Source: Strigamia acuminata (Eukaryota). From it: a stretch of 64,000 bases of DNA. Within the stretch, counting starts at the first letter, position 1. The number at the start of each line of letters is the position of its first letter. Positions 10,796-63,916 of this stretch are shown piece after piece. The position numbers and the translations under genes were made by a program. The notes beneath the pieces were generated by a model. The model was given only the letters and a program-made list of their open reading frames with translations, had not been told where the DNA came from and made no database searches. The stretch covers positions 26,660,001 to 26,724,000 of the forward strand of contig OX442314.1 of the NCBI GenBank assembly GCA_949358305.1, given 5' to 3'.

Positions 10796-10810
10796 GCCAC
10801 TAGATGGCAT
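10796..10810 (+). promoter_or_regulatory. CTCF-like motif upstream of PKMYT1
   Basis: GCCACTAGATGGCAT; the 17-mer tttgccactagatggca recurs at 61557. Confidence 0.55.
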
Positions 10811-40470: not shown

Positions 40471-40534
40471 TCGCTAGATGTCGCTTGTAGTCAAAATGCA
40501 AGTTCCATGATGCACTTGTTGCAACTATAGCTAC
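40471..40534 (+). promoter_or_regulatory. Putative promoter module of leader-family gene 1: CTCF-like site + CCATGATGC + degenerate X-box
   Basis: TCGCTAGATGTCGCT (40471), CCATGATGC (40505) and GCAACTATAGCTAC (40521); same order and near-identical spacing as at 61560-61622. Confidence 0.5.
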
Positions 40535-40800: not shown

Positions 40801-43800
40801 ATGATTGGTGTTGTGCTCGCTCTAACGCATATTTTGTTCAGAATATTGGATCCAATATCGGCAGTATGGCGCAAAAGCTCGATAAGTAAGTTGGAAAATG
40901 GAGGGTTAGGCTTAGCTCAAAGTTAATGGGACAATTGTTATTTTTAAGCAAAATGGCTTTGTGAAATAGCTTTTCGTATGGATTGGTTTTGATTTTTGTG
41001 CACATGATTCAATTATCAATTACCGGTAATAAACAATCGATTATTAGGTGTAAAAAATTTATTTCTGCATGAAGTTAATTTTTACCCAAAAAGTGCAATT
41101 TTGTCAACAAAAAGTTCATTTTGAACACAAACACAAAGTTCAATTTTGACCACAAAGTTCAATTTTCACCCGCAAATTTTAATTTTTACTTAAAGATTTC
41201 AATGTTTACCGAAGAAATCAATTTTAGACCCAAAACAAAGTACCGATTTTAATTATTTCTCTTATTTTAATCTATAAATTTCAATTTTAATCCACAAAAT
41301 TCAATTTTAATCCACAAAATTCAATTTTAATCCACAAAATTCAATTTTAATTCTAAAAATTCAATTTTAACTCGTAAAGTCACATTTTAATCCACAAATT
41401 TCAATTTCAATCCACATATTTTAATTTTAATCCACATATTTTAATTTTACTTTACAAATTTCAATTTCAATCCACAAATTTCAATTTTAATCTCCAAAAA
41501 ACAAATTTTTTCCAAAAACATCCAATTTCTACCAAAAAAATTCAATTTTAAATAAGAAATAGTGCCATTTTAACCAAAAAATTACAATCTGGGCTCAAAA
41601 TAATTTAATTTCCGCCTTAAACTTCCAGTATTTGTTGTATTTTCAAGCTTCTAATTTCTAATATATCTTTTTAATTTATGCAGCTTCCAGCGACATCACG
41701 GCAGAAGGGGTTGGTGACATAATCAACACAACAAATGTTACTCAACCGGACCTTCAATCCCCAGAAGCTTCTCTCCTAGGAGTGAAACAGCCCTTAGGAG
41801 ATGAGGCGTCACAATCTCTTGGTCCAGTGACGACTGCCCCCAGATTTGAGGCACAAAGTCGGGCAACCGCACGATCTCATCTGACTCAACCCGTCATCAC
41901 AATAAATCCCTCTGGAATTACTCCGTCCGCTTATGCTGATACAAACATGAATTGGCCCGCTGCGCCATTTGTAGATCCGTGCGAGAACTTTGGACCCGGA
42001 CCGTGGCGAGAGATGGTCGCTGCCCGTGTGGCTTCTCTGCCAGCTCTCATGGGCTACGGTTGTTCGATGCAAGGTTATCCGGGAGGAAGTGCTTATGGAC
42101 CGGGCTACGGCGCTGTAACTGCCTTCGCTCCACCAGGTACACTTTAGCATTTTTCGGTGGCAAAATTGAATAAAAATTTGAATTTTAGGCGATAACAATT
42201 GCATCACTTGTGTTTTTGTGTACATAAGTATAAAATAAAAACGCATGTCTGTGTAAATCTAACATTTTAATGGATCATTTAGCAATCAATTAACATTTTT
42301 CTGTGTAAACTCGTGTAAAATTGCAATTATTTTAGCATTTTTGTGAAAATATGTGTAAAATTGCAATTATTTTAGCATTTTTGTGAAAATAGTGTAAAAT
42401 TGCAATTATTTTCGCTTTTTTGTGTAAAAATGTGTAAAAATGGAATTATTTTCGCATTTTTGTGTAAAAATGTTTAAAAATGGAATTATTTTAGCATTTT
42501 TGTGAAAATATGTGTAAAATTGCAATTATTTTAGCATTTTTGTGAAAATATGTGTAAAATTGCAATTATTTTCGCATTTTTGTGTAAAAATATGTAAAAA
42601 TGGAATTATTTTCGCATTTTTGTGTAAAAATGTTTAAAATTGCAATTATTTTAGCATTTTCATGTGTAAAATTGCATCATTTAAGCATTTTCATGTGTAA
42701 AAATGTAAAAAATTGCAATTATTTTAGCATTTTCATGTGTAAAAATGTAAAAAATTGCAACTATTTAAGCATTTTCATGGGTAAAAATGTAAAAAATTGC
42801 AATTATTTTAGTATTTTCATGTGTAAAAATGTAAAAAATTGCAACTATTTTAGCATTTTTATGTGTTAAAATGTTTAAAATTGCAATCATTTTAGCATTT
42901 TCTTGTGTAAAAATGTGTAAAATTGCATCATTTAAGCATTTTCATGTGTAAAAATGTGTAAAATAGCAATCAATCAAAACTATCATGCGTAAACGCACGT
43001 AAAATTGCAATTATTTTTTCGTTTTTACCCGTAAAAATGTGTAAAATATTAACCGATCAGCATTATCATGTTTATAACAACCTCAAATTCGCTTCTCACA
43101 AAATTCTATATTCCAGGACTGATCACAAACGGCTACCCTACACAACCACCAATGGGTTACGCAGCCGGCATGCCAATGGCAAGCATGGGTCCTCCAATGG
43201 GATGTTACTCAGGCTTAAACACACCACCATACACCACCCAAGCAATGGGACTCCCAAGTACACGTCCATTATCTCCAACCAGGATGCATCCACCTACCAC
43301 CTGCACACCAGCACCCCGAACCATCGTTCCATCCCAACATCTATCATGCTACGCCCCTGGAGCGATGTCCATGGCCCCGACGATGGCCCCGACGATGGCT
43401 CCGACGATGTCCCCGACGATGACTCACACCATGGGCGGCACGACTGCCGGCACCAAAACGGTCGCGGCGTCGTTCGTACCGCACGACTCTTCGCCACCCC
43501 CGATCGCCAAAAGCCACTACACCACGAACCAGAAGAAAAGCAAATACGAATCGGAACACGTGAGCACCATCACGAAGACGACGAAGAAATCGCCGACGCG
43601 CTCCACCTCCATCATACCCGCGCACCGGTGCGGCAAGTTGACGGGCTTCGAGGAATCGACGCCGCGCACCGACGGCAAGAACAACGGCAAGCGGTCCGTG
43701 ACGCCGACGCCGCGGACGTCGCGCGCGCCCACGCCGGTGTCGGGCTACTTCTCGACGCAGGACGGCTCGCACACGTCGACGCACATCGGACAGAAGAGCC

Positions 43801-44378
43801 AGATGGGCGGGAAAACTGCGGCGACGTCTTTCGCACCAACCACGATGGCGCGAACGCTGCACTCGCCGTCGCCCCCGCAGTCCGGCTACCACTCGCCGAC
43901 CCACTCGCCGACCCACTCGCCGACCCACTCCCCGCAGTCCGGCTACCACTCGCCGACCCACTCGCCGACGCACATAAGCAGCCCACAAGGCGCGAGTGTT
44001 TCGCAGTACGGGCCACGGAGCGGCTACCAGTCGCCCCCGATCCCGATGTCGAACATGCCGCACCCGAATATTGCGACTCCGGGGATGATGAACTCGGGCA
44101 TGTGCTCCCCCGGCGGAGCGTCGCCCGTGATGGGGCAGCAGTCGGGCATGGGAATGATGCAACCGATGATGCAACCGATGATGCATTCGTCTATGGCGGC
44201 GAGACCTATAGGAGCCACTATGGGAAGCCACATGGGGGCCCCTATGGCGAGCGCTATGGGGTGTCCTACGGGGTCGATGATGGGACAGTCGCCGCAGATG
44301 TCTCAGTGGATGAACTGCACGAATTTTGACGAGGGGTATGAGCAGTATCCCATAAGGTTGCCACTAAGAAATTGTTAA
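40801..44378 (+). CDS. Unassigned leader-family gene 1: ~599-aa Pro/Ser/Thr/Met/Gly-rich low-complexity protein; exons 40801-40885, 41684-42136, 43117-44378
   Basis: Exon 1 encodes MIGVVLALTHILFRILDPISAVWRKSSI then A|gtaagt; both introns are GT-AG phase 1 and join in frame (1800 nt); MAPT and HSPT repeats in exon 3. Confidence 0.75.
41270..41495. repeat. 20-bp intronic minisatellite (tcaattttaatccacaaaat)
   Basis: Tandem copies visible. Confidence 0.85.
42300..43050. repeat. ~41-bp intronic minisatellite (tgtgtaaaattgcaattattttagcattttt...)
   Basis: Tandem copies fill intron 2 of gene 1. Confidence 0.9.
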
Positions 44379-44744
44379 TAATTAATAATTGGAAATACCA
44401 CTTGGATCGAGATGTTTGGATGTGTTGAGGGAAGGGAGTCTAAATTGGTTAATTATTGCCTGGTAGGTTTTTCTGTTTAAATGGTCATTTTAAGATTGGG
44501 TTAATTGGGTTGGAAAGAAAGTAAGAGTTGTATGTTTTTGGGTTGGTTGATGGATATATCTTAGGATGAATTTGTTAATGTGTTCATTACAATTGAAATA
44601 TGTATAAATATATTTTAAATCCTACCGAAGGAAATAAAAGTGATTCAGTGGAGGTTTGTTTGTTTGTTTGTTTGTTTGGACATTTTCTGAGGAAAAATTT
44701 TTTTTGTTGTTTTTATTTACAACTATCAGTTGCTGATTTATCAA

Positions 44745-44965
44745 ATTTGCTGGATTTTTACTTGATTTACCAAGATTTTCATCTGATTTACCAGATTTAC
44801 CAAGATTTTCATCTAATTTATTAAAAGTTTTATCTGATTTATGAAAATTTTCATCCGATTTACAAATATTTGTTGGATTTTCGTCAGATTTACTAAGATT
44901 TTTTGGATTTTCGTCAGATTTACTAAGATTTTCTGGATTTTTATCATTTGATTTATCAGATTTTC
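44745..44965. repeat. Intergenic degenerate tandem repeat (gatttaccaagattttc-type)
   Basis: Tandem units visible. Confidence 0.75.
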
Positions 44966-45288
44966 TCGATTAACAAATCTCAAATCTTGTGGCACGTTCA
45001 AAAAATACGCCACAAACGCCTAAAAATCCCCTGTTGACGTAACAAACAAACAAAAAACAATCCCAGAATTCAATAGAAAAATAAACAGTCATTTGGTGAT
45101 TTTGTCTGTAATGGGACGCAAAATTTTAGAGTGAGTTTACAGAACTAGTATTCATTTAACAGACAACCAAGCGACATGAAACAGAAAATGATTGGAATGA
45201 CCTTGATTGCAAATGACACATTTCAAGAAAAGAAATGGAGATACACTATCGCGAAACGCATCACGAAGTTAAGCCTAACATCGACATA

Positions 45289-48200
45289 ATGATTGGAACT
45301 GCCCTTGTAGTCACCCAGATTGCTTTACGAATGATCTCCTTATTCACAGACACCGACGGACGCCTCGGACGTAAGCCCAACGATCCAACAAACGCAAAAT
45401 GCCACTATACGCAATTCTTTATTTGCAGGGCGGTATTTACCAGCGACCGAATTGCGACTGCGACAAGCGCAATCCAAAATTCTTGCCAGTACACAGACAT
45501 CATGTTCCCAATCAGACAGCGATGATTCACAATTAGTTTACCCCGAATCCATGTCAGATGGCGTAGTGAATAAAGCGCTCGATGCCATCGACGTGCTACG
45601 GAAAAGGGAAAAGGAGGACGATCCGGAAGAATTGCTTTCGTGTCAGCGAATAGAAGCTGGTTACGGCAGAGATATTGTGCGGAAACCAATAAAGAGAGAC
45701 GTTCCGACTGCAAATTATGCGCGCTTTAATACCAGACAACGAGTCCAAGCGACACGTAATCAAAGATCGGTTTCGGTTAGACCTGGTGGGTTCTTGAAAG
45801 TCAGTTAACCCTTTCACTGTCAAACCCGTAAATACACTTTGTGTCTGACACTGAGAGTCTGTGCATGCAAAAAATACCCGGCACTGAATGGGTTAAAAGT
45901 AAAAGATGTTATTAGGTGCAGGGTAGGTGCGACATATTTCTACCTGAGGCGAGCAAGGCATACGCCGCCCTTTTGAACAGTAAAAAAATTTTTTGTTGAA
46001 AAAATCGGTTTGTGCGCCCACAGATGCCGCCCCTAGAAATATGTCGCCTGAGGCGGCTGCCTGACCCCTCACTTTTACAAGTGAACGCAAAAAACGAACT
46101 TATACTCTGGCCATGCATAACTTGAGCCTAAATCCGAGCCTCATTACTCACTCTGTGCCACAGTCTCTATACTGTGCTCTGTGCTGCCACCAGGGAAAAT
46201 AGTTCAGAGTTTAATGCTTGCTTCTGGTGTTTGGATCTATTTTCTTGTATCACTACACCAGAGAAAAGGCTCGGATTTAGGCTCAAGTTATGCATGGCCA
46301 GAGTATAGTTCACTTTAAGAGTGAACTTGAACGAAGTTTGCGTTCACCATGTTTGACGATGAAAACGTAACTTTTTGTTGGGGCTCGACTGAGAGCAAAT
46401 TTAGTAGCAGGAAATTTCGATAGGTCGGGCCGTGGGAACAAATTTATACAGGGAAATCTGGATAGGTCGGACCGTGGTAATAAAAAAAAATTCAAAACGT
46501 TCCGGACCAGTCCACTAGAGCTTTTATGGCATGGCACTGTGTATTGTTCTATACTGTACGTATTTGTTCTGAATTAAGCGTGGTAGTAATCGTAATCTAT
46601 TTTGAATTTGCAGCATTAGCAAGAACAGCAGTGGCTGGTCCAAGTAGCAGAAGAGATGACTTTAAACCTGGTTCGCGAATTACGCTCAGTGCTGCCAAAT
46701 CTCGTTTTGGAACTTTAGCAACTTTTGGAAGTAAAGCCGACAAGTCTCGTAGAAAACACGGCATTCCCCCAGTAAAAACAATAGGAGCTGTTCGGATGGT
46801 TCGAAGCATAATGGAAAATCCATCCACAGACGACGACGACGACATGGAAACAGCATCAGTACATTATTTGAAAGCTGCAAAGTCCTCATCAACTGGTCGT
46901 TTGGTAGCTGCTTCAGTGGCTGCTGTAGCTGCCAGAATCACAGCGGCTCGATCGGTCAACGCCAGCTTTACAACATTACCAATGTCTTCCAGCGACACAG
47001 ATTCGTTGCACAAACTTACTTTGGGTCACAATTCGATGCCCTGGCTTTATCCATCGTTAAGGAGAAGAATTTCAACAACACCTGAATCAGAAGAGCAAAA
47101 GCCATACCAAAATGCAGGACCCTCTTGGAGAAAAGATAATGTTGGCAGGACCAATAATGTTGGCAGGACCAATAATGTTGGCAGGACTAATAAAGTCGAC
47201 AGGACTAACTTAAAAGACAAAGGGAATGTGGATGACAAAATGAGTAGTCAAGATTTCTCTATTCCCACAACTTCAATAGGAATAGGTGTGAAGAATGGCA
47301 ATAAACTCTATCCTTCTCCGGTAACGTCAGTGTCTAGTGAACAACGCTTGCGAAAGCTAGAAATCGGTTTTGTTGGGGAGAACGACAATTCAGACAATTC
47401 TCTGACAAAAAAGGTAACCGTAGACCAAACGAATAGCACATGCTCAGTGATTGAAAATGATTCGGTAAATAGTTACAAGCCGTTGGAAATCTATGCCAGT
47501 AAAGATCAGGAGGAACAACGATTGCTTCCTGAAAACAAAATCCCGCATATTAGAGATTCCATAGAAACTGCAAAAAGTTTTCTGAAAAGGCCAAAATCCA
47601 ATCAATGCTTCATGGACAAAAGTGGCCAGAAGAATGTGGATAATGGATTGCTGACAATGGCCCAAAGCAGTGGCAGACTGTTAGATCAAACCATCCGGAC
47701 CAGATGTCAGTTACCATTCTCCTCGCAGAGTGATAAAAACCTCGCTATGGTTGATGAAGATGTGGAGGAAAGACAACAGCATTATCCCACTCCACTGCTA
47801 AGCCGCGAGTCTTCGCAAGTGAACAGTTCTTTTGCATCTGTTGAAGAAACTTCGCATCCAAAGGCCGGCGGAGGAAATGCGTTGCTGACGGATGGCATAC
47901 CGCACCACAAATATGGGGCTGCATCATCAACGGTTAAGCAAAAGAATAGGACTTTCTACAATCGGTTGTTTTCGGCAAACAACGAACCGGCTTTGACCAC
48001 TTCAGTACCAAGCAGAGAGAGCGTAGTATCGTCTCCTTTGGATGCGGATAGAAGTACCATCACACTGACCCAAAGCGCCAAAAGTTCATTAACTATTTCC
48101 AATACTGGGAATAATGCATTGAAGTTTAATCAAACCGGTGAAAGTTTGTTGTCTTTTGAAGGAGGTTTCAATCGTTATTTCTCTATGAGAGAAAGTGAAA

Positions 48201-51200
48201 ACAGTTTTTTGTATGCAGATCAGAGTGGTTTAAGCTCTGAAAGAAACGACAATAGATCACTTTCCATAGGAGACAGCAGTGGAAGTGTCTACTTCAGAAG
48301 TAGTCCACTAAAGGGTAGTGAAGGATCAAAAGAGTCAGCTGAGAATAAAAACACATTCACTGTAGAAAATACAAACAATAACCTGAAGGGGAAGTGGGTT
48401 ACCATAACCACAGCAAAAACACAGAAAATCAAAACTGTCGTGAGTGATAAAGCAAGCGGTTTAGATAATGAAGAAAGTCAACCTGACAGCAGTGGCAAAC
48501 AAGAGAGTGGTATTGCAGATTCTCCTGAGCAACAATCTGAAAATGGGTTTCACTTTTCAAGAGAAAGCAGTAGAGATCTTTCACTTGTTGTGGGAAATGA
48601 TAAATACATACAATCTGCAAGAAAAACAGAAGAAGTTGGACAGAAGAGTGGAAATGAAAGACGTTCTGTTCCTGCAACTGCTTCAGGCTCTGGCAGAGGT
48701 GAACAGCCTAAAAAAGCTCCCAAAAGAAAAGATTGTGGAGTAGTTGGATATCAAAGTAATTTTCCCTCATCAATTCTTGGGATACCAAATGGAAGCGTGC
48801 TTTTACCTGGATTAAGGTCTTCAATGCGTAGTAGTGAAATAAGCTCACCCACAAGAACACTGGGCAGTGGTACCACAAATAGCACTTTAAGTACCTACTC
48901 CACAAATACACCAGGAATGGATAGTAGAAGACAAAGCGGTACAGGATCAACAACAGGATTTACAAGAACACCAAGTTCATTTAGCACTGGGATGACGTTT
49001 GATGATTCAGGAAGCAGTAGCTCGAGGTATCAAGTGTTGCCTGGAACAAAGAGTGGTAGACATTCTTATCCTGAATCATTACCTATAAATTTTGATGGTA
49101 AAAGTGGAAGAAGTTCTCTTCCACTAACATCATCTAAAACTCCGTATGGTGGTGCTCCCTTAATTGGAATTGGAGCTAAATTTGAAAGGTATAGAGCTCC
49201 GTATCGTGGTGCTCCAGCAATGGGATCTAAGATGGAAAAGTATAAAGACCCATTTCCTAGATCAAGTTTAGGTAATGTGATTGCTAATAAAGGGGGTTTT
49301 GTCGAGCCAGACACCAGAAGTGATTCAGTCACAAGCATTTCACCAGGATTTAGTAGAATTAATGTAAGACCATTTTCTTGGATGCAAACCACAGCAAAAA
49401 ACGGTGGTTCAGGATTGCAGTCGGATGGCACATCGGATGTTAGAGTGGAACCTGTAAGTAGCAGTCGGCATCTAATCGTTGTAGGATCAGACGGATTGAT
49501 TGTCGGTAACAAAAATTCAATTTTTGAAGCAAATGAGAATCAAATACAACCTGCAGCAACATTATCACCCAGAAGCAATGGAAGAGAAACTGAAACAGAT
49601 GCATCACAATCAACCGGTGTAGGATTAACATCGGAAAAAATGAGCACTTCTAAGCCGTTATCAGCAATGGGAGGGGTGATGAGTGATAATGAACCAATAG
49701 ATTCAAATCCAACTGGTAAAAGTATATCTCAACTAGTTAGTTCTATGGGATTTTTTGTTAGTTCAGCCAGTTTAGAAGAAGGTCAGCAGTCTGACAATGT
49801 TTTATTTCCAAGAACAGAAAATGATATTGACTTATTGTCAGAAAGAGAAAGGGATGCTGCTTATACTTCTGCTTCCGATCCCAAGAAAGCTAGTCCAATA
49901 TCTGGAAGTCTGCAAACTGGACCTCCAATAATTAATAGACAAATGTCTTCAGAAAATACGTTAAAAGACCAAATGATGAAATATACACCAATTTCAAATG
50001 TACCAGTTAGAACTGGAGCTTTATTCAACCTACACGATCAAAGACAAAGTAATGAATTCTCAAGTTCTAATGGATCATTCATTGACAGTATGCAACAAGA
50101 AGCAATACCTTTATTGGAATCAAGTACAGAATCTAGAGGAAGATTGCCACAAAGACAATATTTTTCTTCTTCAGATTCATCTTCCAATGGTTCAGAAGCA
50201 ATTAAGAATTCTTTGGAACCACAGATATTCACGAATTCAAATGAGAATAGAATAGAACAAACTGCTTCACTGTCAAAAACATCTGTCAGGAAAAGGAACT
50301 TGGATCATAATATCAATGGTCAGCCCATTTACGCTCAGCACATAGATGATACGACTGGTTTGACTATTGATAATGGAGTAGAACAAATTGCTCCAATGTC
50401 AGAAACATCTGCCAGGAAAACAGTTGAAGACTCAGGATCAATCTTAACTCAGAATAGTGAAGCTCATCTTGCATCAACAAGTGCGAAGTCATTAATTGGA
50501 AAGCCATTTGATAATAAAGCGACAGAACACCGGTTTGATGACAAAATAATTGAACACCGGCTTTTAAGTGCACAGATATTAGTGAAAGCAAATGAGAATG
50601 GAGTAGGACAGTCTGCTCCAATGTCAGAAACATCTGTCAGGAAAACATCGGAAGACTCTGGATCAATCTTGAGCCAAAATGGTGAAGCTCATCTTGCATC
50701 AACAAGTGCAAAGTCATTAATTGGAAAGCCATTTGGTAATAAAGCGACGGATTACCGGTTTGATGATAAAATAGTTGAACACCAGCTTTCAAGAACACAG
50801 ACATTTGTGAAAGCAAACGAGAATGGAGTAGGGCAGTCTGCTCCAAAGTCAGGAACATCTGTCACGAAAGCATTGGAAGACTCTGGATCACTCGTGAGCC
50901 AAAATGGTGAAACTCATCTTGCATCAACAAGTGCAAAGTCATTAATTGGAAAGCCATTTGATAATAAAGCGTCGGATCACCGGTTTGCTGATAAAATAGT
51001 TGAACACCAGCTTTCAAGAACACAGACATTTGTGAAAGCAAACGAGAATGGAGTAGGGCAGTCTGCTCCAATGTCAGGAACATCTGTCAGGAAAGCATTG
51101 GTAGACTCTGGATCAATCGTGAGCCAAAATGGTGAAACTCATCTTGCATCAACAAGTGCAAAGTCATTAATTGGAAAGCCATTTGATAATAAAGCGTCGG

Positions 51201-54200
51201 ATCACCGGTTTGATGATAAAATAGTTGAATACCAGCTTTCAAGAACACAGACATTTGTGAAAGCAAACGAGAATGGAGTAGGGCAGTCTGCTCCAATGTC
51301 AGGAACATCTGTCAGGAAAGCATTGGTAGACTCTGGATCAATCTTGAGCCAAAATTGTGAAGCTCATCTTACATCAACAAGTGCACAGATATTAGTGAAA
51401 GCAAATGAGAATGGAGTAGGACAGTCTGCTCCAATGTCAGGAACATCTGTCAGGAAAACATTGGAAGACTCTGGATCAATCTTGAGCCAAAATGGTGAAG
51501 CTCATCTTGCATCAACAAGTGCACAGATATTAGTGAAAGCAAATGAGAATAGAATTGGACAGTCTGTTCAAATGTCAGAAAAATCATTCATTCACAGTAT
51601 GCAACAAGAAGCAATACCTTTATTGGGGTCGATTAGTGAATTTGCTAACCTGTTCAATACAGGATCTAGAGGAAGATTGCCACAAAGACAATATTTTTCT
51701 TCTTCAGAATCATCTTCTAATGGTTCAGAAGGAATTAAGAATTCTTTGGAACCACAGATATTCATGAATTCAAATGAGAATAGAATAGAACAAACTGCTT
51801 CACTGTCAAAAACATCTGTCAGGAAAAGGAACTCTGATCGTATTGTCAATGGTCAACCCATTTACGCTCAGCACATAGATGATACGACTGGTTTGACTAT
51901 TGATAATGGAGTAGAACAAACTGCTCCAATGTCAGAAACATCTGCCAGGATATCAGTTGAAGACTCAGGTTCAATTTTAACTCAGAATGGTAAACCTCAT
52001 CTTGCATCAACAAGTGCAAAGCCATCATCTGGAAAGCCATTTGATAATAAAACGACGGTACATCGGTTTGATGACAAAGTTGTAGAAGACCAGCTTTCAA
52101 GAACACAGATATTTGTGAAAGCAAATGAGAATGGAGTAGGGCAGTCTGCTCCAATGTCAGGAACATCTGTCAGGAAAACATTGGAAGACTCCGGATCAAT
52201 CTTGAGCCAAAATGGTGAAGCTCATCTTGCATCAACAAGTGCACAGATGTTACTGAACGCAAATGAGAATGGAATAGTACAGTCTGCTCCAATATCAGGA
52301 ACATCTGTCAGGAAAACATTGGAAGACTCTGGATCAATCTTGAGCCAAAATGGTGAAGCTCATCTTGCATCAACAAGTGCAAAGTCATTAACTGGAAAGC
52401 CATTTGATAATAACGTGATGGAACACCGGTTTGATGATAAAATAGTTGAACACCGGCTTCAAAGTGCACAGATATTAGAGAAAGCAAATGAGAATGGAAT
52501 TGGACAGTCTGCTCCAATGTCAGGAACATCTGTCAGGAAAGCATTGGAAGACTCTGGATCAATCTTGGGCCAAAATGGTGAAGCTCATCTTACATCAACA
52601 AGTGCAAAGTCATTAACTGGAAAACCATTTGATAATAAAGCGATGGAACACCGGTTTAATGACAAAGTAGCAGAAGACCAGCTTTCAAGAACACAGATAT
52701 TTGTGAAAGCAAACGAGAATGGAGTAGGGCAGTCTGCTCCAATGTCAGGAACATCTGTCAGGAAAACATTGGAAGACTCTGGATCAATCTTGAGCCAAAA
52801 TGGTGAAGCTCATCTTGCATCAACAAGTGCAAAGTCATTAACTGGAAAGCCATTTGATAATAACGTGATGGAACACCGGTTTGATGATAAAATAGTTGAA
52901 CATGGACTTCTAAGTGCACAGATATTACTGAACGCAAATGAGAATGGAGTAGGACAGTCTGCTCCAATGTCAGGAACATCTGTCAGGAAAACATTAAAAG
53001 ACTCTGGATCAATCTTGAGCCAAAATGGTGAAGCTCATCTTGCATCAACAAGTGCACAGATATTAGTGAAAGCAAATGAGAGTGGAATTGGACAGTCTGC
53101 TCTAATGTCAGGAACATCTGTCAGGAAAACGTTGGAAGACTCTGGATCAATCTTGAGCCAAAATGGTGAAGCTCATCTTGCATCAACAAGTGCACAGATA
53201 TTAGTGAAAGCAAATGAGAATGGAGTAGGACAGACTGCTTCAATGTCAGCAAAATCATTCATTCACAGTATGCAACAAGAAGCAATATCTTTATTGGGGT
53301 CGATTAGTGAATTTGCTAACCTGTTCAATACAGGATCTAGAGGAAGATTGCCACAAAGACAACATTCTTCTTCTTCAGAATCATCTTCTAATGGTTCAGA
53401 AGCAATTAAGAATTCTTTGGAACCACAGATATTTATGAATTCAAATGAGAATAGAATAGAACAAACTGCTTCACTGTCAAACACATCTGTCAGGAAAACA
53501 TTGGAAGACTCTGGATCAATTTTGAGCCAAAATGGTGAAGCTCATCTTGCATCAACAAGTGCAAAGTCATTAACTGGAAAGCCATTTGATAATAAGGCAA
53601 TGGAACATTGGCTTGATCATAGAGCGGCAGAACACGACCTTCCAAATGCACAAATATTTTTGAAAGCAAACGTGAATGAAGTAGAACAAACAATGATGGA
53701 AACATCTGCCAGGAAATCAGTCGAAGACTCTCGGTCAATATTAAGCCAGAATGGTGAAAGTCATACATCAGTTAGAAAGCCATTTGATAATAAAGGTACG
53801 GAACACAGACTTGATGATGGAGTGGTAAAACACTGGTTTCCAAGTACACAAACACTTGCCAATGAAATTTCAAGTGCTGCTCTATTGGAACAAAAGGCTG
53901 AAGGGGCGTCGTACCAAGATAGTTTTGATGACCAAACATCTGGAGAAACAATTGTTTATAAAGTTGAGGATGATGCTTCACCCAATCATGGTGAGAGTGG
54001 ATCAAGCAAAAGTAGTTTAATACTCAAAGAATCACCGGTAAAGGTGGTACCGGGAGTTAGTAGAATTCACATAAGACCATTTTTTTGGATCCAACCCACA
54101 CCAAACAACGGAGGAGCAGGATTGCAGTCAGTTGGCACGTCAGATATTACAGCGGAACCTGTAAGTAATAGTCGACATCTAATTGCAGTAGGATCAGGTG

Positions 54201-57200
54201 GATTGATTATTGGTAACAAAAATTCAACTTTTGAAGCAAATGAAAATCAAACACTTCCTGAAGCAACATTACTACCCAGAAGCAGTGGAAGAGACGCATC
54301 ACAATCAACCAGTGTTGGGTTAGCGGCGTTGAGTGTAAGTAAATTGAAAAACATGAGCAGTGCTACACTATTATCAGTAAAGGAAAATGTGATGAGTGAC
54401 CATGACCCAGAAGATTCAAATCCAACTGGTAAAAGTTTATCTCGACTAGTTCAATCTATGGGATTTTTTGTTAGTACCACCAGTTTGCAGGAAGCTCAGC
54501 TGTCTGAGAATGTTTCATTTTTAAGTACAGAAAGTGATAATGACTTATTGCCAGAACTAAAAAGGAATGTTGGTTCTAACATCGTCTCTCATCTCAAGAA
54601 CATTGGTAGACAAATATCTTCAGAAAATCTTTTAAACGAGCAAATGACGGATTATACTCCAATTCCAAATGAATCAGTTGGTAATGAAACTTTATTCAAC
54701 CAGCAAGATCAAAGACAAACAGAAAAAATCAATGAATCCTCTACTCCGAATGGATCATTCATTCGCCGTAAACAACAGAAAGCAATGCCTTTATTGCGGT
54801 CAACTCGTAAGCTTGCTAACCAGTTCAATACAGAAGCTGGAGGAATATTGAGGCAAAGACAACATTCTTCTTCTTCAGATTCATCTTCTGTTGCTTCAGA
54901 AACAACAGAGAATATAGGAAGACAAATATCTTCAGAAAATCTTTTAAACGAGCAAATGACGGATTATACTCCAATTCCAAATGAATCAGTTGGTAATGAA
55001 ACTTTATTCAACCAACAAGATCAAAGACAAACAGAAGAAATCAATGAATCCTCTACTCCTAATGGATCATTCATTCGCCATAAACAACAGAAAGCAATGC
55101 CTTTATTGCGGTCAACTAGTAAGCTTGCTAACCAGTTCAATACAGAAGCTGGAGGAATATTGAGGCAAAGACATCATTCTTCTTCTTCAGATTCATCTTC
55201 TGATGCTTCAGAAACTTCAGAAACAACAGAGAATCCTATAGAAACACAGATATTACTCAAAACAAATGAGAATAGAATAGAAGAACCTGCTTCAATGTCC
55301 AAAAGATCTAACAAGAAAACAAAATCGCGTTTTAGGGCCAATGGTCAAACAGTCTACGGTCGGCACATTGATGATGTGCCTTATTTGAATATTGAGGATG
55401 AAGTAAAACCGGCTCCTCCAATGTCAGCATCATTAGCCACTAAACCAGTTAAAGACACGCCACCAGTTAAAGACACGCCACCAGTTAAAGACACGCCACC
55501 AGTTAAAGACACGCCACCAGTCTTTTCTCGGAAAGATATAGGAAATCTTGAATCAACAAGTAAGAAGAAATTAACTAGAAAGCCATTTGATAACAAAGAA
55601 ATAGAACACCGGCCCGATGATAAAGCGGTGGCACACCGACTTCCAAATGCTCAGATATTTGTGGAAGCAAATGAGAATGAAGTGGAACAAACAGCTACAA
55701 TGGACATATCTGCCAGGGAATCAGATAAAGACTCTCAGTCAAGCTTAGCCCAGAATAGAGAACCTCAACCAGCATCAACTAGTGTGAAGTTACCAACTGG
55801 AATGCCATTTCATAATAAACCTGTGGAACATGGGCTTGATGATACAGTGGTACAACACTGGCTTCCACAAACACTTGCCAATGAAATGTCAAGTGCCACT
55901 CTATTGGAACGAGACATTGTAGGGGCATCACACCGGGATAGTTCTGACAAAACATCTGGAGAAACCGATGTGGATAAACCGGAGGAGGATGCTGCATCCA
56001 GTCTTGGCGAAGATGAATCGACCAAAAGAAGTCTATCGCCCAAAGAATCAATGATAAAGATTGGATCAGGATTTAGTAGGATCAACATAAGACCATTTTC
56101 TCGGATACCATCCGCACGAAACAACAGTAGCACAGGATTACAGTCAGTTGGCACATCGGATGTCACGGAACCTGTAAGTAGCAGTCGGCATCTAATCGCA
56201 GTAGGATCGGACGGATTGATTGTCAGGAACAGAAATTCAACACCTGAAGCAAATGAAAATCAAATACGGTCTGAAGCAACATTAACACCCAGAATCAACG
56301 GAAGAGAAATTGAAATAGACTCATCACAATCAACCGGTGTTGGGTTAGCGTCCTTCGGTGGGAGTAAATTGAAAACATTGAGCAGTTCGGCGCCATTGTC
56401 AATAACAGAAGTTGTGATGAGTGACCATGGCCCAATAGATTTAAATGCAACGGGTAAAAGTTTATCTCAACTTGTTCAATCTATGGGATTTTTTGTTAGT
56501 TCAACTAGTTTGGAGGAAGGTCAGCAGTCTGACAATGTTTCATTTCCAAGAACAGATAATGATGTTGACTTGTTGTCGGAAATAGAAAGGAAAGTTGTTT
56601 CTACCTCGGACTCTGAGCAGAAGAAAACAAGTCCATTGTCGGGAAGTCTGCAATCTGGACTTTCCACAATTAATAGACAAATGTCTTCGGAAAATATATT
56701 AAAAGACCAAATGATGAAATATACACCAATTTCAAATGGACCAGTTAGAACTGGAGCTTTTTTCAACCTACAAGATCAAAGACAAACGGAAGAAATTAGT
56801 GAGTTGTCAATCTCTACTGGATTATTCAATAACAGTACGCCGGAAGAAGCAATATCTTCATTGGGGCCAAGTAGGCAACGTGCTTACAAGTCTAACTCAG
56901 GAGCAAGAAAAAGACGGAGTCAAATGTACTTTTCTCCTTCCGATTCATCTTCTGATGGGTCAGGAACAATAAACAATTATTTGGACACACACATTTTCAT
57001 TAACTCAACTGAGCAGGGAATAGAAGACAATGCTTCAATTTCAAAAACATCTGTCAGGAAAATGGACTCAGGATCGACATTAACTAAGGATACTAAATCT
57101 CAACTTTCATCAACAAGCATGGAGTCATCAACTGGAGATCCATTTGATAATAAAGCAACTGAACACCGACTTGATGATAAAGCGGTTGAACACCGGCTTA

Positions 57201-60200
57201 GAAATGTGAAGGCAAATGAGAATGAAGCAGAACGGACTCCTCTAATGACAGCTGGAGGAATATTGAGGCAAACACATCATCCTTCTTCTTCAGATTTATC
57301 TTCTAATGCTTCAGAAACATCAGAGAATCCTATAGAAACACAGATATTACTCAAATCAAATGAGAATAGAATAGAAGAAACTGCTTCAATGTCCAAAAGA
57401 TCTAACAAGAAAACAAAATCGCATCGTAGGGCGAATGGTCAAACAGTCTACGGTCAGCACATTGATGATGTGCCTTATTTGAATATTGAGGATAAAGTAA
57501 AACCGGCTCCTCTAATATCAGCAACATTAGCCACTAAACCAGTTAAAGACACGGAACCAGTTAAAGACCCGGAACCAATCTTTTTACGGAAAGTTAAAGG
57601 AGATCTTGAATCAACAAGTAAGAAGACATCAACTAGAAAGCCATTTGATAATAATGAAATAGAACACCGGATCGATGATGAAGCGGTGGCACACCGGCTT
57701 CCAAATGCACAGATATTTGTGGAAGCAAATGATAATGGAGTGGAACAAACTGCTACAATGACGGACATATCTGCCAGGAAATCAGTTGAAGACTCTCAGT
57801 CAAACTTAACCCTGAATAGAGAACGTCAACCAGCATCAACTAGTGTGAAGTTACCAAGTGGAATGCCATTTGATAATAAAACTGTGGAGCACCGGCTTCC
57901 AAATGCACAGATATTTGTGAAAGCAAATGAGAATGGGGTGGATCAAACTGCTACAATGATGGACACATCTGCCAGGAAATCAGTCGAAGACTCTCGGTCA
58001 ATCTTAACCCAGAATGGGGAAAGTCAGCCAGCTTCAACTAGTGTGAAGTCATTAACTGAAAAGCCATTTGATGATAAAACGATGGAACACCAGCTTTCAA
58101 ATGCACAGATATTTGTGAAAGCAAATGAGACTGCAGCAGAACAAACTTCTACAATGACAGAAACATCCGCCAGGAAATCAGTCGAAGACTCTCGGTCAAT
58201 CTTAAGCCAGAATAGTCCAACATCATCTAGTGAGAATTCATCAACTGAAAAGCCATTACATAATAAAGTGTTGGAACACCTGCTTGATAATAAAGGCATC
58301 CGTGAACAGATTCCAAGTGGACAGGTATCTGTGCAAGCAAATGAGAATGGAGTAGGTCAGGCTGCTCAAATGTCAGAAAAATCATTCATTCACAGTATGC
58401 AACAAGAAGCAATACCTTTATTGGGGTCGATTAGTGAATTTGCTAACCCGTTCAATACAGGATCTAGAGGAAGATTGCCACAAAGACAATATTTTTCTTC
58501 TTCAGATTCATCTTCTAATGGTTCAGAAGCAATTAAGAATTCTTTGGAACCACAGATATTCACGAATTCAAATGAGAATAGAATAGAACAAACTGCTTTA
58601 CTGTCAAAAACATCTATCAGGAAAAGGAACTCGGATCGTATTGTCAATGGTCAACCCATTTACGCTCAGCACATAGATGATACGACTGGTTTGACTATTG
58701 ATAATGGAGTAAAACAAACTGCTCCAATGTCAGAAACATCTGCCAGGATATCAGTTGAAGACTCAGGATCAATTTTAACTCAGAATGGTAAACCTCATCT
58801 TCCATCAACAAGTGCAAAGCCATCACCTGGAAAGCCATTTGATAATAAAACAATGGAACATCGGCTTGATGACAAAGTAGTAGAAACCCAGCTTTCAAGA
58901 ACACAGATATTTGTGAAAGCAAACGAGAATGGAGTAGGGCAGTCTGCTCCAATGTCAGGAACATCTGTCAGAAAAACATTGGAAGACTCTGGATCAATCT
59001 TGAGCCAAAATGGTGAAGCTCATCTTGCATCAACAAGTACGAAGTCATTAATTGGAAAGCCATTTGATAATAAAGCGACGGATCACCGGTTTGATGATAA
59101 AATAGTTGAACACCGGCTTCAAAGTGCACAGATATTAGAGAAAGCAAATGAGAATGGAATTGGACAGTCTGCTCCAATGTCAGGAACATCTGTCAGGAAA
59201 ACATTGGAAGACTCTGGATCAATCTCGAGCCAAAATAGTGAAGCTCATCTTGCATCAACAAGTGCAAAGTCATTAATTGGAAAGTCATTTGATAATAAAG
59301 CGACAGAACAGCGGTTTGATGAGAATGGAGCAGAACAAACCGCTCCAATGTCAGAAACGTCTGCCAGGAGAACAGTTGAAGAATCAGGATCAATTTTAAT
59401 TCAAAATGGTAAACTTCATCTTGCATCAACAAGTGCAAAGCCATCACCTGGAAAGCCATTTGATAATAAAAGGACGGAACATCGGTTTGATGACAAAGTA
59501 GTAGAAGACCAGCTTTCAAGAACACAAAAATTTGTGAAAGCAAACGAGAATGGAGTAGGGCAGTCTGCTCCAATGTCAGGAACATCTGTCAGGAAAACAT
59601 TGGAAGACTCTGGATCAATCTTGAGCCAAAATGGTGAAGCTCATCTTGCATCAACAACTGCGAAGTCTTTAATTGGAAAGACATTTGATAATAAAGCGAC
59701 AGATCACCGGTTTGATGAGAATGGAGCAGAACAAACCGCTCCAATGTCAGAAACGTCTGCCAGGATAACAGTTGAAGACTCAGGATCAATTTTAACTCAA
59801 AATGGTAAACTTCATCTTGCATCAACAAGTGCAAAACCATCACCTGGAAAGCCATTTGATAATAAAACGACGGAACATCAATTTGATGACGAAGTAGTAG
59901 AAGACCAGCTTTCAAGAACACAGATATTTCTGAAAGCAAACGAGAATGGAGTAAAACCGTCTCCTCCAATGCCAGAAACACAAACATCTGTCACGAAAAC
60001 ATTTGAACACTCTAAGTCAACCTTAATTCAAAACGGTGACAGGCACCCAGCATCAACCAGTGCAAATTCTTCACCTGGAAGGCCATTTGACAATAAAGCA
60101 ATAGAACTCCGGCTTGACGATAAAGTGGTTGGACACCAGCTTCCGAGTGAACAGATATTCGTGAAAACAAATGAGAATGAAGTGGAAAAACTTGCTTCAA

Positions 60201-60874
60201 TTTCAGAAACATCTGCCAGGGAAATAGTTGAAGACACCGGGTCAGTCTTTACCCAAAGTCAACCAACATCAACTAGCGTAAAGTCATCAACTGGAAAGCC
60301 AAGTACACAAACACTTGCCAAAGAAACCTCGAGAGCTACTCTGTTGGAAGAAGAGTTCGTAATGGGATCGTACCGAGATAGTTCTACCCAAACATCTGGA
60401 GAAACAGTTGCGTACAACGTGGAGGATGATGCAGCGTCTAGCTTCGGTGAGAGTGATTCAAGCATAAGTTATCGAAGGCACAAAGAATCGGCGGTGAAGA
60501 AATTTGAAGCAATAAGTAAAACAACTAAAGTTAATGCTCAAACTTCAACTTCGGAGAAAAAATCGGATTATAAAGTGCCAACGGAGGAAGAGAAACCTAG
60601 ACATCGTAAATCAGACTCCGACGGGTTTTTGAAAAGGAAATTCAGTAATGGTTTAGGACTTTTGATTGAATCGGCGTCGTTTTTTCCATCGGTGCAATCT
60701 GTGAGGACTTTAATTCGAGCACCAAGGATGTTTCTTTCCAGTCGGAGGTTGGATGACGCGAGAAATCGTCGATGTACCTCCTGCTCATCGGAACGGATGA
60801 AAAGTGCCGCCGAAGATGTTTCTGGTTTAAAATGGTGTAGTGATAGTTCAGAATCAGACGAGAGCTTGCACTGA
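45289..60874 (+). CDS. Unassigned leader-family gene 2: giant (~4899-aa) Ser/Thr/Glu/Lys/Asn-rich repeat protein; exons 45289-45370, 45429-45785, 46614-60874
   Basis: Exon 1 encodes MIGTALVVTQIALRMISLFTDTDGRLG then C|gtaagc; acceptor tttatttgcag (45428); donor G|gtgggt (45786); acceptor tttgcag (46613). Both introns are phase 1 and join in frame (14700 nt). The last exon is 14.26 kb without a stop. An in-frame upstream ATG at 45235 would add 18 aa. Confidence 0.85.
45809..45892. mobile_element. 84-bp piggyBac-like MITE in intron 2 of the giant gene
   Basis: TTAA-CCCTTTCACTGTC...GGCACTGAATGGG-TTAA; same terminus family as 27385-27425. Confidence 0.7.
46101..46307. mobile_element. TA-flanked MITE (~205 bp) with perfect 41-bp inverted ends
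   Basis: TATACTCTGGCCATGCATAACTTGAGCCTAAATCCGAGCCT (46101-46141) is the exact reverse complement of 46267-46307. Confidence 0.88.
50360..60240 (+). repeat. Coding repeat array of the giant gene: 225-nt (75-aa) unit, 138-nt (46-aa) deletion variant and higher-order modules
   Basis: The unit KANENGVGQSAPMSGTSVRKTLEDSGSILSQNGEAHLASTSAKSLIGKPFDNKATDHRFDDKIVEHQLSRTQTFV recurs at 225-nt spacing (e.g. 50586, 50811, 51036); the short unit is spaced 138 nt (51398, 51536). Confidence 0.95.
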
Positions 60875-61559: not shown

Positions 61560-61622
61560 GCCACTAGATGGCACGGTGGATAATTTCATTACCCATGATG
61601 CTAAATTTGTTTCCATAACAAC
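61560..61622 (+). promoter_or_regulatory. Putative promoter module of leader-family gene 3: CTCF-like site + CCATGATGC + RFX X-box
   Basis: GCCACTAGATGGCAC (61560), CCATGATGC (61593) and GTTTCCATAACAAC (61609-61622). Confidence 0.55.
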
Positions 61623-61921
61623 GAACGTTTAAAATTCTATTTTCTGGCAGACGTGTGGGAAGATGGACAAAATTTGTAGTTTATAATCTCAAAATATTGT
61701 AAAATTAATTAACTAATTAAATTAGTTAATTAATAAATTGTGATTTAAAATTTAGAATCCGAAAGACCAAATTAATGGAATAAGAATATTATCTCCCACA
61801 CAAATCGAAAAAGCCTAAAATTTCAGATAAATATGAATATTGAATTTCTTTGACAGTACGACCCAAGTTCTAAGTTATTATTTCTTCTAATATCTTCGTA
61901 AAAAACGGTAAATTTGCAACC

Positions 61922-63199
61922 ATGATTGGAACGTTTCTTGTGTTGTCACATTTCTTATTTCGTCGATTGGGATTGGCACCGCTCACACAATCGCTGGGTT
62001 GTGGTAAGTACAGACAAAAACAGACAAAACCCCCCCAAAAAAAACCTAAAAACGTCCAAACTGACCCAAAAACGCGCCAAGTTTCGTTTTCTAACGTTCA
62101 AATCGAAAATCCCGTCAAGATATTCCAATTCGCGCTCAAATCGAGAAAACGCGAGACTTCTCACAAGTGTAAACTAAATTATTCCAATTCGCACAATTCA
62201 AAATTGCCTTTTAGAATCGATTTGCCTAACCCATGAAGGCGGAGCAAGACCTCCTGGCGCACCGGGTGGACCGACGAGAACGACCCGACAACTCGGCGGA
62301 ACGGACGATCCCCCTCATTCAGCGAGCGGTCGAACACTAGTCGAAAGTCGAAGCACTTTGAACCGATCGGATGGTCCATGCAATCTGGGATTGGGGACGA
62401 CTACCGGCTTAGAGAATCATGAAACTAATGCGATGACCGCGTTTGACTTCCAACCATTACTAGAAACATCAGAAGCCATTCCATTGATCGGTTTCGATTT
62501 CGAGACCATTGTTGACTCTAGATCGACGCCGTCGGCCGATTTCGGCGCGGCCGTCTGCGAATATCTGGACGAAGAAAGGTTTGGCGAAGAACTTTGCCCC
62601 TTATCTTTATTCGGTGCATCTGTAGGAGGTGGTGGTGGGGTCTTTCAAGATTTAGCTCCTATGTCCAGCTCCGAGAACAGCCTCGTTTCAGTAGATACGC
62701 CTCTAGCGGCAGTGGACGACATCAAAACCAACGAAATTCATGTGATGGAATCTGACGATTTTCCGGCATCTGGTGACGGAACCAAAACATCTATCGACGT
62801 TCTCTTAACCCAAGAACAAGGAAAAGGTTTCATTTGTTTATTTTTATTACAATTTATTTATTTATTATTTATTTATTTCTTTAATTTTTAGAAATGCCAA
62901 CTAACGGTTTGGACGAAGTGATAGCCGCCATTTTGGGACTAGATGACATAATGGTGGGCGATTCAGAAGTGACGCAGGGATTGAAGACGGATTTTAATAG
63001 TCCTATTGACGATGCTCTTGGGAGGATGAAATGTTGCATGAAAAATGCTGTATCTAAAGTCGAACTGGAAGCATTGGCTGGTAGTAGGGGTGAAGGAAGA
63101 GTGCCTTTAATGGTCGTCGATGCACCCAAACAAGAATCTGCGTGTTCGGATCAAGACAATTTGCTGTTTTTGGATAATTGTTACAAAAACTCATTTTAG
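61922..63199 (+). CDS. Unassigned leader-family gene 3: ~333-aa acidic, probably disordered protein; exons 61922-62003, 62215-62826, 62892-63199
   Basis: Exon 1 encodes MIGTFLVLSHFLFRRLGLAPLTQSLGC then G|gtaagt; both introns are GT-AG phase 1 and join in frame (1002 nt). Confidence 0.75.
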
Positions 63200-63534
63200 A
63201 ACAAAATATCACTTTTATAAATATTTTATTTTTGTGAGAAATTTCGACATTTTTTTGTAAGAATAGAAATAATAAATTTGACGGAGCTAACTTTTCGTTT
63301 TATTTAAATTTATATTTAAGGTTGTCGCTATTTGACGCCAGTGGTCGCTTGATTTTTGATTCGGAAGTGGAAGAAATACTTTATATTCTTATTTTTATTT
63401 TACAGAAAACTATATTTTTATTTTTATTTTACATTAAAACTAATAGTAAATGGTTTTTTTTTTTATTAATTTAATGAAAACGAATATATTTTTGGTGTGC
63501 GTACAGCCCGCACCAAACCTGTCGCTGTTGGGCC

Positions 63535-63548
63535 GTTGCCACGGCAAC
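63535..63548. promoter_or_regulatory. RFX X-box-like palindrome upstream of leader-family gene 4
   Basis: GTTGCCACGGCAAC is one base from GTTGCCATGGCAAC and lies 312 bp before the ATG at 63847. Confidence 0.6.
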
Positions 63549-63846
63549 AACTAAAGGTTAATTTTGTAAAAAGAATGGCGAGGTTTTTGTGACACTTCTA
63601 ATCTGTACTCATTCACATCATCCACTCTATTTCGGCCCGAGTTGATTAAATTTACCGCGACCATTACTTGAAGGCGTACATCGTTTTCTAAAATGTTTAA
63701 ATCTTAAATGTTAAATTCGTAAAAAAAAAAATCTTAGTTTAATTACTTCGCCATGCCATTTTAAAATATGAAGTGGATTCATATCTACCGATTAATTTAA
63801 AACAACAAACTTAATTTATTTATATTTTCCCACGCATTAATTTAAA

Positions 63847-63916
63847 ATGATTGGAACCGTATTAACCTTGTCTCATTTAGTACTACGGCATCTGGGAATC
63901 GCTTACAATGACGAAG
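63847..63916 (+). CDS. Unassigned leader-family gene 4, first coding exon only (remainder beyond the window)
   Basis: MIGTVLTLSHLVLRHLGIAYNDE then G|gtaatt (phase 1); matches the leader of genes 1-3. Confidence 0.7.

What the first reader, a model, noticed from the sequence alone, without database searches (positions are those of the whole stretch)
40801..63916. Tandem cluster of four orphan genes sharing a conserved 16-aa 'MIG' leader exon joined to unrelated disordered bodies
Seen in sequence: four + strand ATGs encode MIGVVLALTHILFRIL (40801), MIGTALVVTQIALRMI (45289), MIGTFLVLSHFLFRRL (61922) and MIGTVLTLSHLVLRHL (63847). The consensus is M-I-G-[TV]-x-L-x-[LV]-[ST]-[HQ]-h-h-[FL]-R-x-[LI], with invariant M1, I2, G3, L6 and R14. 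Each leader sits in a short exon (85, 82, 82, 70 nt) ending in a phase-1 GT donor. The three complete genes all have 3 coding exons with phase 1/1 introns. Their bodies share no visible similarity: a 599-aa Pro/Met/HSPT protein, a ~4899-aa repeat protein and a 333-aa acidic protein. Two of the leader exons are absent from the ORF track, so the family is easy to miss. Inference: a rapidly evolving paralog family in which only a targeting or assembly tag is conserved. The tag lacks the basic n-region of a classical signal peptide and has fixed H/Q10 and R14, which suggests a membrane-anchor or docking helix that delivers varied disordered cargo to one structure. I do not recognise the motif from any known family.
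Basis: partly seen in the sequence, partly recalled or inferred. Interest (0 to 1): 0.92.

Follow-up and report, generated by a model that had tools for sequence, protein, structure and literature searches.

The report
Centipede genes sharing one anchor exon
A soil centipede carries a row of undescribed genes (four in this window, likely five or more) whose proteins share a conserved 16-amino-acid starting helix, which likely anchors their very different and mostly floppy bodies to one membrane, though this is untested.

Summary
Four + strand leader exons (85, 82, 82, 70 nt, phase-1 GT) encode the same 16-residue helix, far above chance. They are conserved as protein: codon position 2 is 72/90 identical, position 3 only 23/90. 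The window is from a Strigamia centipede (flanking MFAP1 is 96% identical to S. maritima). S. maritima holds the orthologous cluster, mis-annotated as one 3201-aa protein (T1J739) fusing genes 2, 3, 4 and a probable fifth. In gene 2, identity continues across the predicted leader-body junction. Corrections: the genes are not species orphans; I2 can be L; gene 2 has a conserved in-frame 18-aa upstream extension; its 4899-aa size is a lineage-specific repeat expansion (orthologue about 1540 aa); gene 1 shares a second IPAxxCG..[FW][DE][DE] motif with downstream members; gene 3 is 75% conserved. No Pfam, PDB, Atlas or literature match was found, and no RNA data were available. Best reading (0.45): an uncleaved N-terminal membrane-anchor helix tethering cytoplasmic disordered bodies, like mammalian SPEM proteins. 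A cleaved signal peptide, as in Drosophila glue genes, is a close rival (0.35). This is a new family of a known architecture.

The parts
40472..40483 (+). CTCF-like 12-mer 329 bp upstream of the gene-1 ATG (label recalled); probable promoter or boundary mark
   Evidence: 4 exact matches in the window, all near gene starts; pattern drawn up after seeing the sites
40801..40885 (+). Gene 1 exon 1, MIG leader, phase-1 donor
41684..42136 (+). Gene 1 exon 2 (phase 1-1)
   Evidence: predicted junctions
43117..44378 (+). Gene 1 exon 3, Pro/Ser/Thr/Gly/Met-rich with HSPT repeats; protein 599 aa
   Evidence: 4 of 5 listed variants are synonymous
43608..43673 (+). Second shared motif IPAxxCG-x3-[GA][FW][DE][DE], also in the S. 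maritima gene-4 and gene-5 bodies
   Evidence: 4 of 500 and 0 of 500 local shuffles; g1 against S. maritima g4 directly 194 of 500
45235..45288 (+). In-frame 18-aa upstream extension of gene 2, from an ATG with A at -3 and G at +4
   Evidence: 14/18 identical in S. maritima; may be coding or conserved UTR
45289..45370 (+). Gene 2 exon 1, MIG leader, phase-1 donor
   Evidence: in the S. maritima model identity continues across this junction, but not along the unspliced read-through
45429..45785 (+). Gene 2 exon 2 (phase 1-1)
   Evidence: 58/114 identical to S. maritima
46614..60874 (+). Gene 2 exon 3, 14.3-kb ORF; roughly 50200-60400 is a lineage-specific repeat expansion; protein 4899 aa
   Evidence: 20 KANEN-type units against 1 in S. 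maritima; 159 of 165 repeat pairs in frame
61562..61573 (+). CTCF-like 12-mer 360 bp upstream of the gene-3 ATG
61922..62003 (+). Gene 3 exon 1, MIG leader, phase-1 donor
   Evidence: this exon is absent from the fused S. maritima model
62215..62826 (+). Gene 3 exon 2 (phase 1-1)
62892..63199 (+). Gene 3 exon 3; protein 333 aa, acidic
   Evidence: body 218/292 identical to S. maritima, contiguous across this junction
63847..63916 (+). Gene 4 exon 1, MIG leader; the body lies beyond the window (in S. maritima about 550 aa, rich in Ser, Lys and Glu)
   Evidence: (18/23 identical to the S. maritima leader)

Best explanation
These are real, tandemly arranged centipede genes whose shared first exon encodes a 16-residue helix that likely stays on the protein as an N-terminal membrane anchor, and so would tether very different, largely disordered bodies to the cytoplasmic face of one membrane or structure. 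Shown: the leader exons, their protein-level conservation, orthology and synteny with S. maritima, and the repeat expansion of gene 2. Predicted: the splicing and the helix. Inferred: the family grew by tandem duplication of a three-exon gene; the bodies then diverged or were replaced while the anchor stayed fixed. The narrow polar stripe (G3, H/Q10, R14, residue 17) would give specificity, by packing against a partner or by setting topology. A single specialised cell type such as spermatids is a guess by analogy, with no expression data.
For: Specific residues are fixed across six leaders (M1, G3, L6, H/Q10, R14) although third codon positions are saturated (23/90 against 72/90 at position 2). 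That is more than a generic signal peptide needs (own knowledge). The hydrophobic core is broken by T/S9-H/Q10. There is no basic residue before the helix and R14 lies after the core, which by the positive-inside rule (established knowledge) favours a cytoplasmic C-terminus. Gene 2's conserved in-frame extension, if translated, would put the helix at residues 19-35. The bodies are charged and Ser-rich rather than mucin-like: D+E is 12-17% in g2, g3 and S. maritima g4, and g2 has 10 Cys in 4872 aa. Only 1 of 9 aligned N-glycosylation sequons is conserved, against 5.2 expected. In gene 3 the G-L-A site is followed by Pro, which would block cleavage there. The helix is predicted with pLDDT 88 and 74 in the first two blocks of ten.
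Against: There is no localisation or expression evidence. The helix is short and polar for a membrane span (crude sums of 3.2-6.1 kcal/mol on a recalled scale), so it would have to lie in-plane or be shielded. Phase-1 introns at this position are typical of signal-peptide genes (PMC1626468, abstract). Small -3/-1 residues (G-I-A before Y) are conserved in g4 and in S. maritima g4 and g5. Cytoplasmic phospho-motifs are not conserved beyond chance (PKA-type 2 of 6, SP/TP 7 of 17, CK2-type 23 of 42). Sequon depletion is ambiguous, because cytosolic proteins should be neutral for sequons.
Confidence: 0.45

Rival explanations
1. The leader is an unusual cleaved signal peptide. The genes then encode secreted low-complexity structural proteins (glue, egg coat, spermatophore web or cuticle), organised like Drosophila Sgs glue genes.
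For: Short first exon with a phase-1 intron (PMC1626468 abstract). Tandem cluster with repeat-driven length change, as in Sgs genes (PMC10835880 passages). Candidate -3/-1 sites: G-I-A in g4 and S. maritima g4 and g5, I-S-A in g1, T-x-G in g2 of both species. Centipede defensive secretions hold many unknown signal-peptide families (PMC11170834 passages).
Against: His/Gln and Arg are fixed within the helix. No single cleavage position is common to all members, and g3 has Pro at +1 of G-L-A. The bodies are highly charged and sequons are not conserved. Short exact family motifs gave no family hit in the held parts of two centipede venom or glue supplements. That is weak evidence: one file was cut, alignment gaps break exact motifs, and one study is of another order.
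Confidence: 0.35
2. The helix is a soluble docking tag that binds a shared partner protein or other family members, with no membrane involved.
For: Residue-specific conservation on one helical face. Poor membrane-span score. M-I/M-L starts are substrates of the NatC acetylase, and such acetylated helices dock into protein pockets (recalled).
Against: Most of the helix surface is hydrophobic (mean Eisenberg 0.40-0.54, moment only 0.26-0.38). Gene 2's extension, if translated, would remove the free M-I-G terminus.
Confidence: 0.13
3. The exons are alternative first exons or modules of one large transcription unit, or are not spliced to the bodies as modelled.
For: All junctions are phase 1, so any leader can splice in frame to any downstream body exon. 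S. maritima's automatic model fuses four genes and lacks the gene-3 leader. No RNA run was available to confirm junctions.
Against: Each body ends in its own stop followed by AATAAA/ATTAAA sites. Each leader sits directly before its own body. Identity with S. maritima continues across the gene-2 junction but not along the unspliced read-through. Promoter-like 12-mers precede genes 1 and 3.
Confidence: 0.07

Closest known systems
Strigamia maritima T1J739 (UniRef, uncharacterized, 3201 aa; P0121)
   Same: Orthologous locus: holds the gene-2 leader and body, gene-3 body, gene-4 leader and body, and a probable fifth gene (RLGIAY remnant at 2488). Its accession number is close to that of the MFAP1 model T1J742.
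   Different: It is one fused automatic model with no name or function, so the family is not recognised there. Its gene-2 part is about 1540 aa, not 4899. Gene 1's orthologue is not in it.
Mammalian SPEM1/SPEM2/SPEM3 and TEX50 (sperm posterior-ring proteins)
   Same: Works-like analogue: a small family with an N-terminal membrane segment (SPEM3 residues 26-48), no known domains, a three-exon SPEM2 gene, and members found at one sperm structure (PMC13711846 and PMC10904452, passages).
   Different: No sequence match (Pfam blank). The MIG helix is shorter and carries H/Q and R. Testis expression is untested here.
Drosophila Sgs1/3/7/8 glue gene family
   Same: Clustered genes, a tiny first exon with a conserved phase-1 intron, large repeat-rich bodies of very variable length, and a short Cys-containing shared motif (PMC10835880, passages).
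   Different: Sgs genes have two exons, the intron at codon 10, a canonical signal peptide and a C-terminal IRXC[L/V]C motif. The MIG genes have three exons, the intron at codon 24-29, and charged Ser-rich bodies.
Conserved-signal, hypervariable-body families (e.g. mussel MgCRP-I; conotoxins, recalled)
   Same: A strongly conserved N-terminal region joined to divergent mature parts (PMC4558851, start of abstract only).
   Different: Those are short, secreted, Cys-rich peptides. These are 333-4899-aa, Cys-poor, low-complexity proteins.
Hexokinase-1/2 N-terminal mitochondrial anchor exon (recalled, not tested)
   Same: About 15-residue hydrophobic N-terminal helix starting Met-Ile, encoded by its own first exon, uncleaved.
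   Different: No PDB sequence or fold match; it is attached to an enzyme rather than to disordered bodies.

Membership tests
Any Pfam family | Profile match | tested here: not met
   10 pieces of the four genes, only one sub-threshold hit (E 0.23) at E<=1. P0121 and two further pieces, 0 families at E<=10.
SPEM/TEX50 family | Sequence homology to SPEM proteins | tested here: not met
   No Pfam hit (that Pfam holds a Spem1 model is recalled). The leader profile against 1.84 billion proteins gave 3 hits, none a SPEM.
SPEM/TEX50 family | N-terminal membrane-spanning segment | tested here: inconclusive
   Helix at residues 2-17; best 19-mer Kyte-Doolittle means 1.3-1.8, but polar H/Q10 and R14. 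No dedicated predictor was available.
SPEM/TEX50 family | Testis-specific expression | not testable with these tools
   No RNA holder listed.
Sgs1/3/7/8 glue family | Two exons, phase-1 intron at codon 10 | tested here: not met
   Three exons; first intron is phase 1 but at codon 24-29.
Sgs1/3/7/8 glue family | C-terminal IRXC[L/V]C motif | tested here: not met
   The last 25 residues of g1-g3 printed lack it.
Classical cleaved signal peptide | Uninterrupted h-region and a -3/-1 cleavage site | tested here: inconclusive
   Best 8-mer hydropathy 2.05-2.98, with T/S and H/Q inside the core. Candidate sites differ in position between members. SignalP was not available.
Described centipede venom or telopodal glue families | Sequence present in venom or secretion data sets | tested here: inconclusive
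   No family hit for short exact motifs in the held, cut supplement of PMC6878950 (the passages shown for MIGT/MLGT/MIGV were internal matches in other proteins, 6 of 13 shown) or in 7 files of PMC11170834.
CPR cuticular proteins | Rebers-Riddiford consensus | tested here: not met
   No Pfam chitin-binding hit.

The most novel reading that the evidence does not exclude
The 70-85-nt phase-1 leader exon is a portable address module. It was copied in front of unrelated, possibly newly born, disordered ORFs (genes 2 and 3 share nothing else with genes 1, 4 and 5). It is a new class of targeting signal, read through its G3/H10/R14 face by a dedicated receptor, and it builds one centipede-specific structure such as a sperm sheath from several unrelated disordered proteins.
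Probability: 0.2. Interest if true: 0.75.

Novelty: new variant of a known kind. Interest (0 to 1): 0.47.

Why it matters
It uncovers a gene family that the only annotated Strigamia entry found hides inside one fused 3201-aa model. It is a clean natural case of a short targeting exon kept under strong selection while bodies diverge, get replaced or expand threefold between two congeners. That makes it testable how new disordered proteins gain an address. If the leader is an anchor or docking tag rather than a signal peptide, it defines a new minimal localisation motif. The general architecture is known from glue genes and SPEM-type sperm proteins, and the family was found in one genus only, which limits the reach.

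Tried and rejected
No whole genome was held, so copies elsewhere in this genome could not be counted. No RNA holder was listed. The two listed runs cover introns and intergenic DNA at even depth and show no splice joints, so they behave as DNA. No read data were obtained for genes 3 and 4. The leader profile against 5.8 billion proteins of 75-2000 aa gave 0 of 189 candidates at E<=10. The gene-3 body plus gene-4 leader of P0121 against proteins under 1760 aa gave 0 of 7992 candidates; this is a word-based search, so it is weak for distant relatives. Two of the three hits of the exhaustive profile search (P0122, P0123) are repetitive unnamed ORFs and were rejected. A single leader may score below that search's cut-off, so relatives in other centipedes are not excluded. 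The degenerate leader pattern in metagenome contigs gave 13 loci; all 13 were an internal helix of one GC-rich membrane protein, and were rejected as chance. PDB sequence searches, Foldseek, ESM Atlas and Rfam gave nothing useful. A single-sequence fold of gene-3 exon 2 gave pLDDT 33, which is uninformative without an alignment. Gene conversion or very recent duplication as the cause of leader similarity was rejected because third positions are saturated. The out-of-frame ATGATTGG at 45188 did not rank in the top four of any leave-one-out scan and is not counted as a fifth leader. No shared upstream 9-mer was found in three or more promoters. A likeness of the IPAxxC motif to the insect vitelline-membrane domain (recalled) was not supported by Pfam. 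Earlier scan findings: nothing relevant.
Full report
Observation. The first exons are 85, 82, 82 and 70 nt and end in phase-1 GT donors. Three-exon models with GT-AG introns, all phase 1, give uninterrupted proteins of 599, 4899 and 333 aa. Unspliced, the leaders of genes 1-3 stop after 41, 78 and 104 codons. The similarity is not chance. In a leave-one-out scan of all 1042 ATG-started open 16-mers, the left-out leader always ranked first (35-44, next best 15-17). The weakest pair of the quartet scores 33, against 15-20 for the best quartet found by a greedy search in each of 30 shuffled windows. A degenerate pattern built from the four finds only them, even with 3 mismatches; that pattern is circular by design.

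The leader is conserved as protein. Over the six leader pairs, nucleotide identity is 46, 72 and 23 of 90 at codon positions 1, 2 and 3, and 28 of 44 shared residues use different codons. This excludes gene conversion or a very recent copy. AlphaFold on the four-leader alignment gives one helix, residues 2-17. G3, residue 7, H/Q10, R14 and residue 17 fall in a 160-240 degree arc of the wheel, and the rest is mostly hydrophobic.

Organism and orthologues. By their translations, the left part of the window holds glycogen debranching enzyme, a Myt1/Wee-like kinase, IDH, MFAP1, a GILT-like gene, a PUS3-like gene and a KIF21-like kinesin (kinase and MFAP1 by Pfam, the other names recalled). MFAP1 is 96% identical to Strigamia maritima and 77% or less to the other 119 listed hits. 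The window is therefore from a geophilomorph centipede, very likely a Strigamia congener. The leader profile against 1.84 billion proteins gave 3 hits. The best (E 1.2e-9) is S. maritima T1J739, 3201 aa, uncharacterized; the other two are repeat ORFs. T1J739 is a fusion: residues 19-1560 match gene 2, 1617-1913 match gene 3's body (70% by BLAST), 1916-1938 match gene 4's leader and are followed by a body of about 550 aa, and an RLGIAY remnant at 2488 points to a fifth gene. Its accession is close to that of the MFAP1 model T1J742, which fits synteny. The S. maritima models were generated automatically (PMC4244043, passages), so they are independent prediction, not proof. Still, identity continues across the predicted gene-2 junction and collapses along the unspliced read-through. 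Gene 1's orthologue was not found: it is not in T1J739, and I did not search with gene 1's body.

Coding evidence. Two DNA-like runs cover 40500-47500. Of the 40 substitution rows shown (2 more not shown), 13 lie in coding exons. Eight of the 13 are synonymous (p=0.006 against 25%, 0.018 against 30%), and the one coding indel listed is a 9-nt deletion. In gene 2, 159 of 165 internal repeat pairs are in frame. No RNA run was listed, so splicing and expression are untested.

The leaders are more conserved than the gene-2 body (27/32 for g2 and g4 together, p=5e-5) but not significantly more than gene 3's body (218/292, p=0.28). I2 is L in S. maritima gene 4. Gene 2 is 4899 aa here but about 1540 aa in S. 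maritima (20 against 1 KANEN-type units), so its size is a lineage-specific expansion. Gene 2 has an in-frame upstream ATG at 45235 in strong context. The 18 extra residues are 14/18 identical in S. maritima, and the other three leaders have no open in-frame upstream ATG within 150 nt. This may be coding or conserved UTR. The three window bodies are unrelated to each other, but gene 1 shares IPAxxCG-x3-[GA][FW][DE][DE] with the S. maritima gene-5 region (4 of 500 shuffles). That region shares the motif with gene 4 (0 of 500); gene 1 against gene 4 directly is not significant for the 16-mer (194 of 500; whole-body score 7 of 300). Genes 1, 4 and 5 therefore look like whole-gene paralogues, while genes 2 and 3 share only the leader. 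Disorder by FoldIndex is high for g2 (64% of windows) and S. maritima g4 (92%), and lower for g1 (35%) and g3 (25%).

Mechanism. I favour an uncleaved N-terminal anchor (0.45). The reasons are the residue-specific fixed polar stripe, no basic residue before the helix and Arg after its core, the possible extension in gene 2, charged Cys-poor bodies, unconserved sequons (1 of 9 against 5.2 expected) and Pro after gene 3's G-L-A. Against it: the helix is short and polar for a membrane span (recalled scale), and cytoplasmic phospho-motifs are not conserved beyond chance. A cleaved signal peptide is a close rival (0.35). Phase-1 introns cluster near signal-peptide cleavage sites (PMC1626468, abstract only). 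Drosophila glue genes combine a phase-1 first intron, clustering and repeat expansion (PMC10835880, passages), and G-I-A before Y is conserved in three leaders. A soluble docking tag (0.13) and a single complex transcription unit (0.07) are less likely. The sperm idea rests only on analogy with SPEM1-3/TEX50 (PMC13711846 and PMC10904452, passages).

Comparison with what is known. No significant match was found in Pfam, PDB sequences, Foldseek PDB, the ESM Atlas or Rfam. No homologue turned up in two word-based searches of 5.8 billion proteins, and the 13 metagenome pattern hits are an unrelated membrane protein. Ten literature searches (listings and abstract starts) found no description of this family, and T1J739 occurs in no searched full text. 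Short motifs gave no family hit in the held part of the supplement of PMC6878950 (cut when stored) or in 7 files of PMC11170834 (main text seen as passages). Subscription papers, the cut part of that supplement and bioRxiv supplements were not seen and could bear on this. The locus is not a member of the SPEM, Sgs or CPR families by the features tested. It probably works like one of the first two.

Verdict. This is a real, undescribed, genus-level tandem family with a strongly selected leader exon, hidden by a fused annotation. The architecture is of a known kind, but the leader motif is new to the libraries searched. Function is inferred only. Interest 0.47.

Noticed in passing
window 10420-10431, 10798-10809, 40472-40483, 61562-61573: One CTCF-like 12-mer (label recalled) occurs four times exactly: twice between the divergent starts of the debranching-enzyme and kinase genes, and once each 330-360 bp upstream of MIG genes 1 and 3.
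   Followed up: partly
window 45176-45213: Four out-of-frame ATGs lie just upstream of gene 2, one beginning ATGATTGG like the leaders (45188); possible uORFs or a decayed copy.
   Followed up: partly
window 43880-43980: YHSPT-HSPT-HSPT repeats in gene 1 resemble proline-directed kinase repeats; S/T-P is mildly enriched (26 against 18 expected, z 2.2).
   Followed up: partly
window 45830-46470: High-copy interspersed repeats fill gene 2's second intron (depth up to about 97,000 against about 300 for unique DNA in X1), including a probable inverted-repeat element around 46100-46320.
   Followed up: no
P0001 (S. maritima T1J742); window 16616-20200: The S. maritima MFAP1 entry is also a fused model (MFAP1 plus a GILT-like protein), so gene fusion errors recur in this annotated region.
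   Followed up: no
P0121 residues 2393-2400: An RKVSF sequence fitting the PP1-docking RVxF consensus (recalled) in the S. maritima gene-4 body; single instance, and its orthologue lies outside the window.
   Followed up: no
window about 60590-60780 (gene 2 C-terminus): A strongly conserved block near the end of gene 2 (from SDSDGFLKRKFS to RAPR) survives beyond the repeat expansion and may be a second functional element.
   Followed up: partly
L001-L013: All 13 metagenome pattern hits are the same internal helix of one GC-rich multi-pass membrane protein family.
   Followed up: partly
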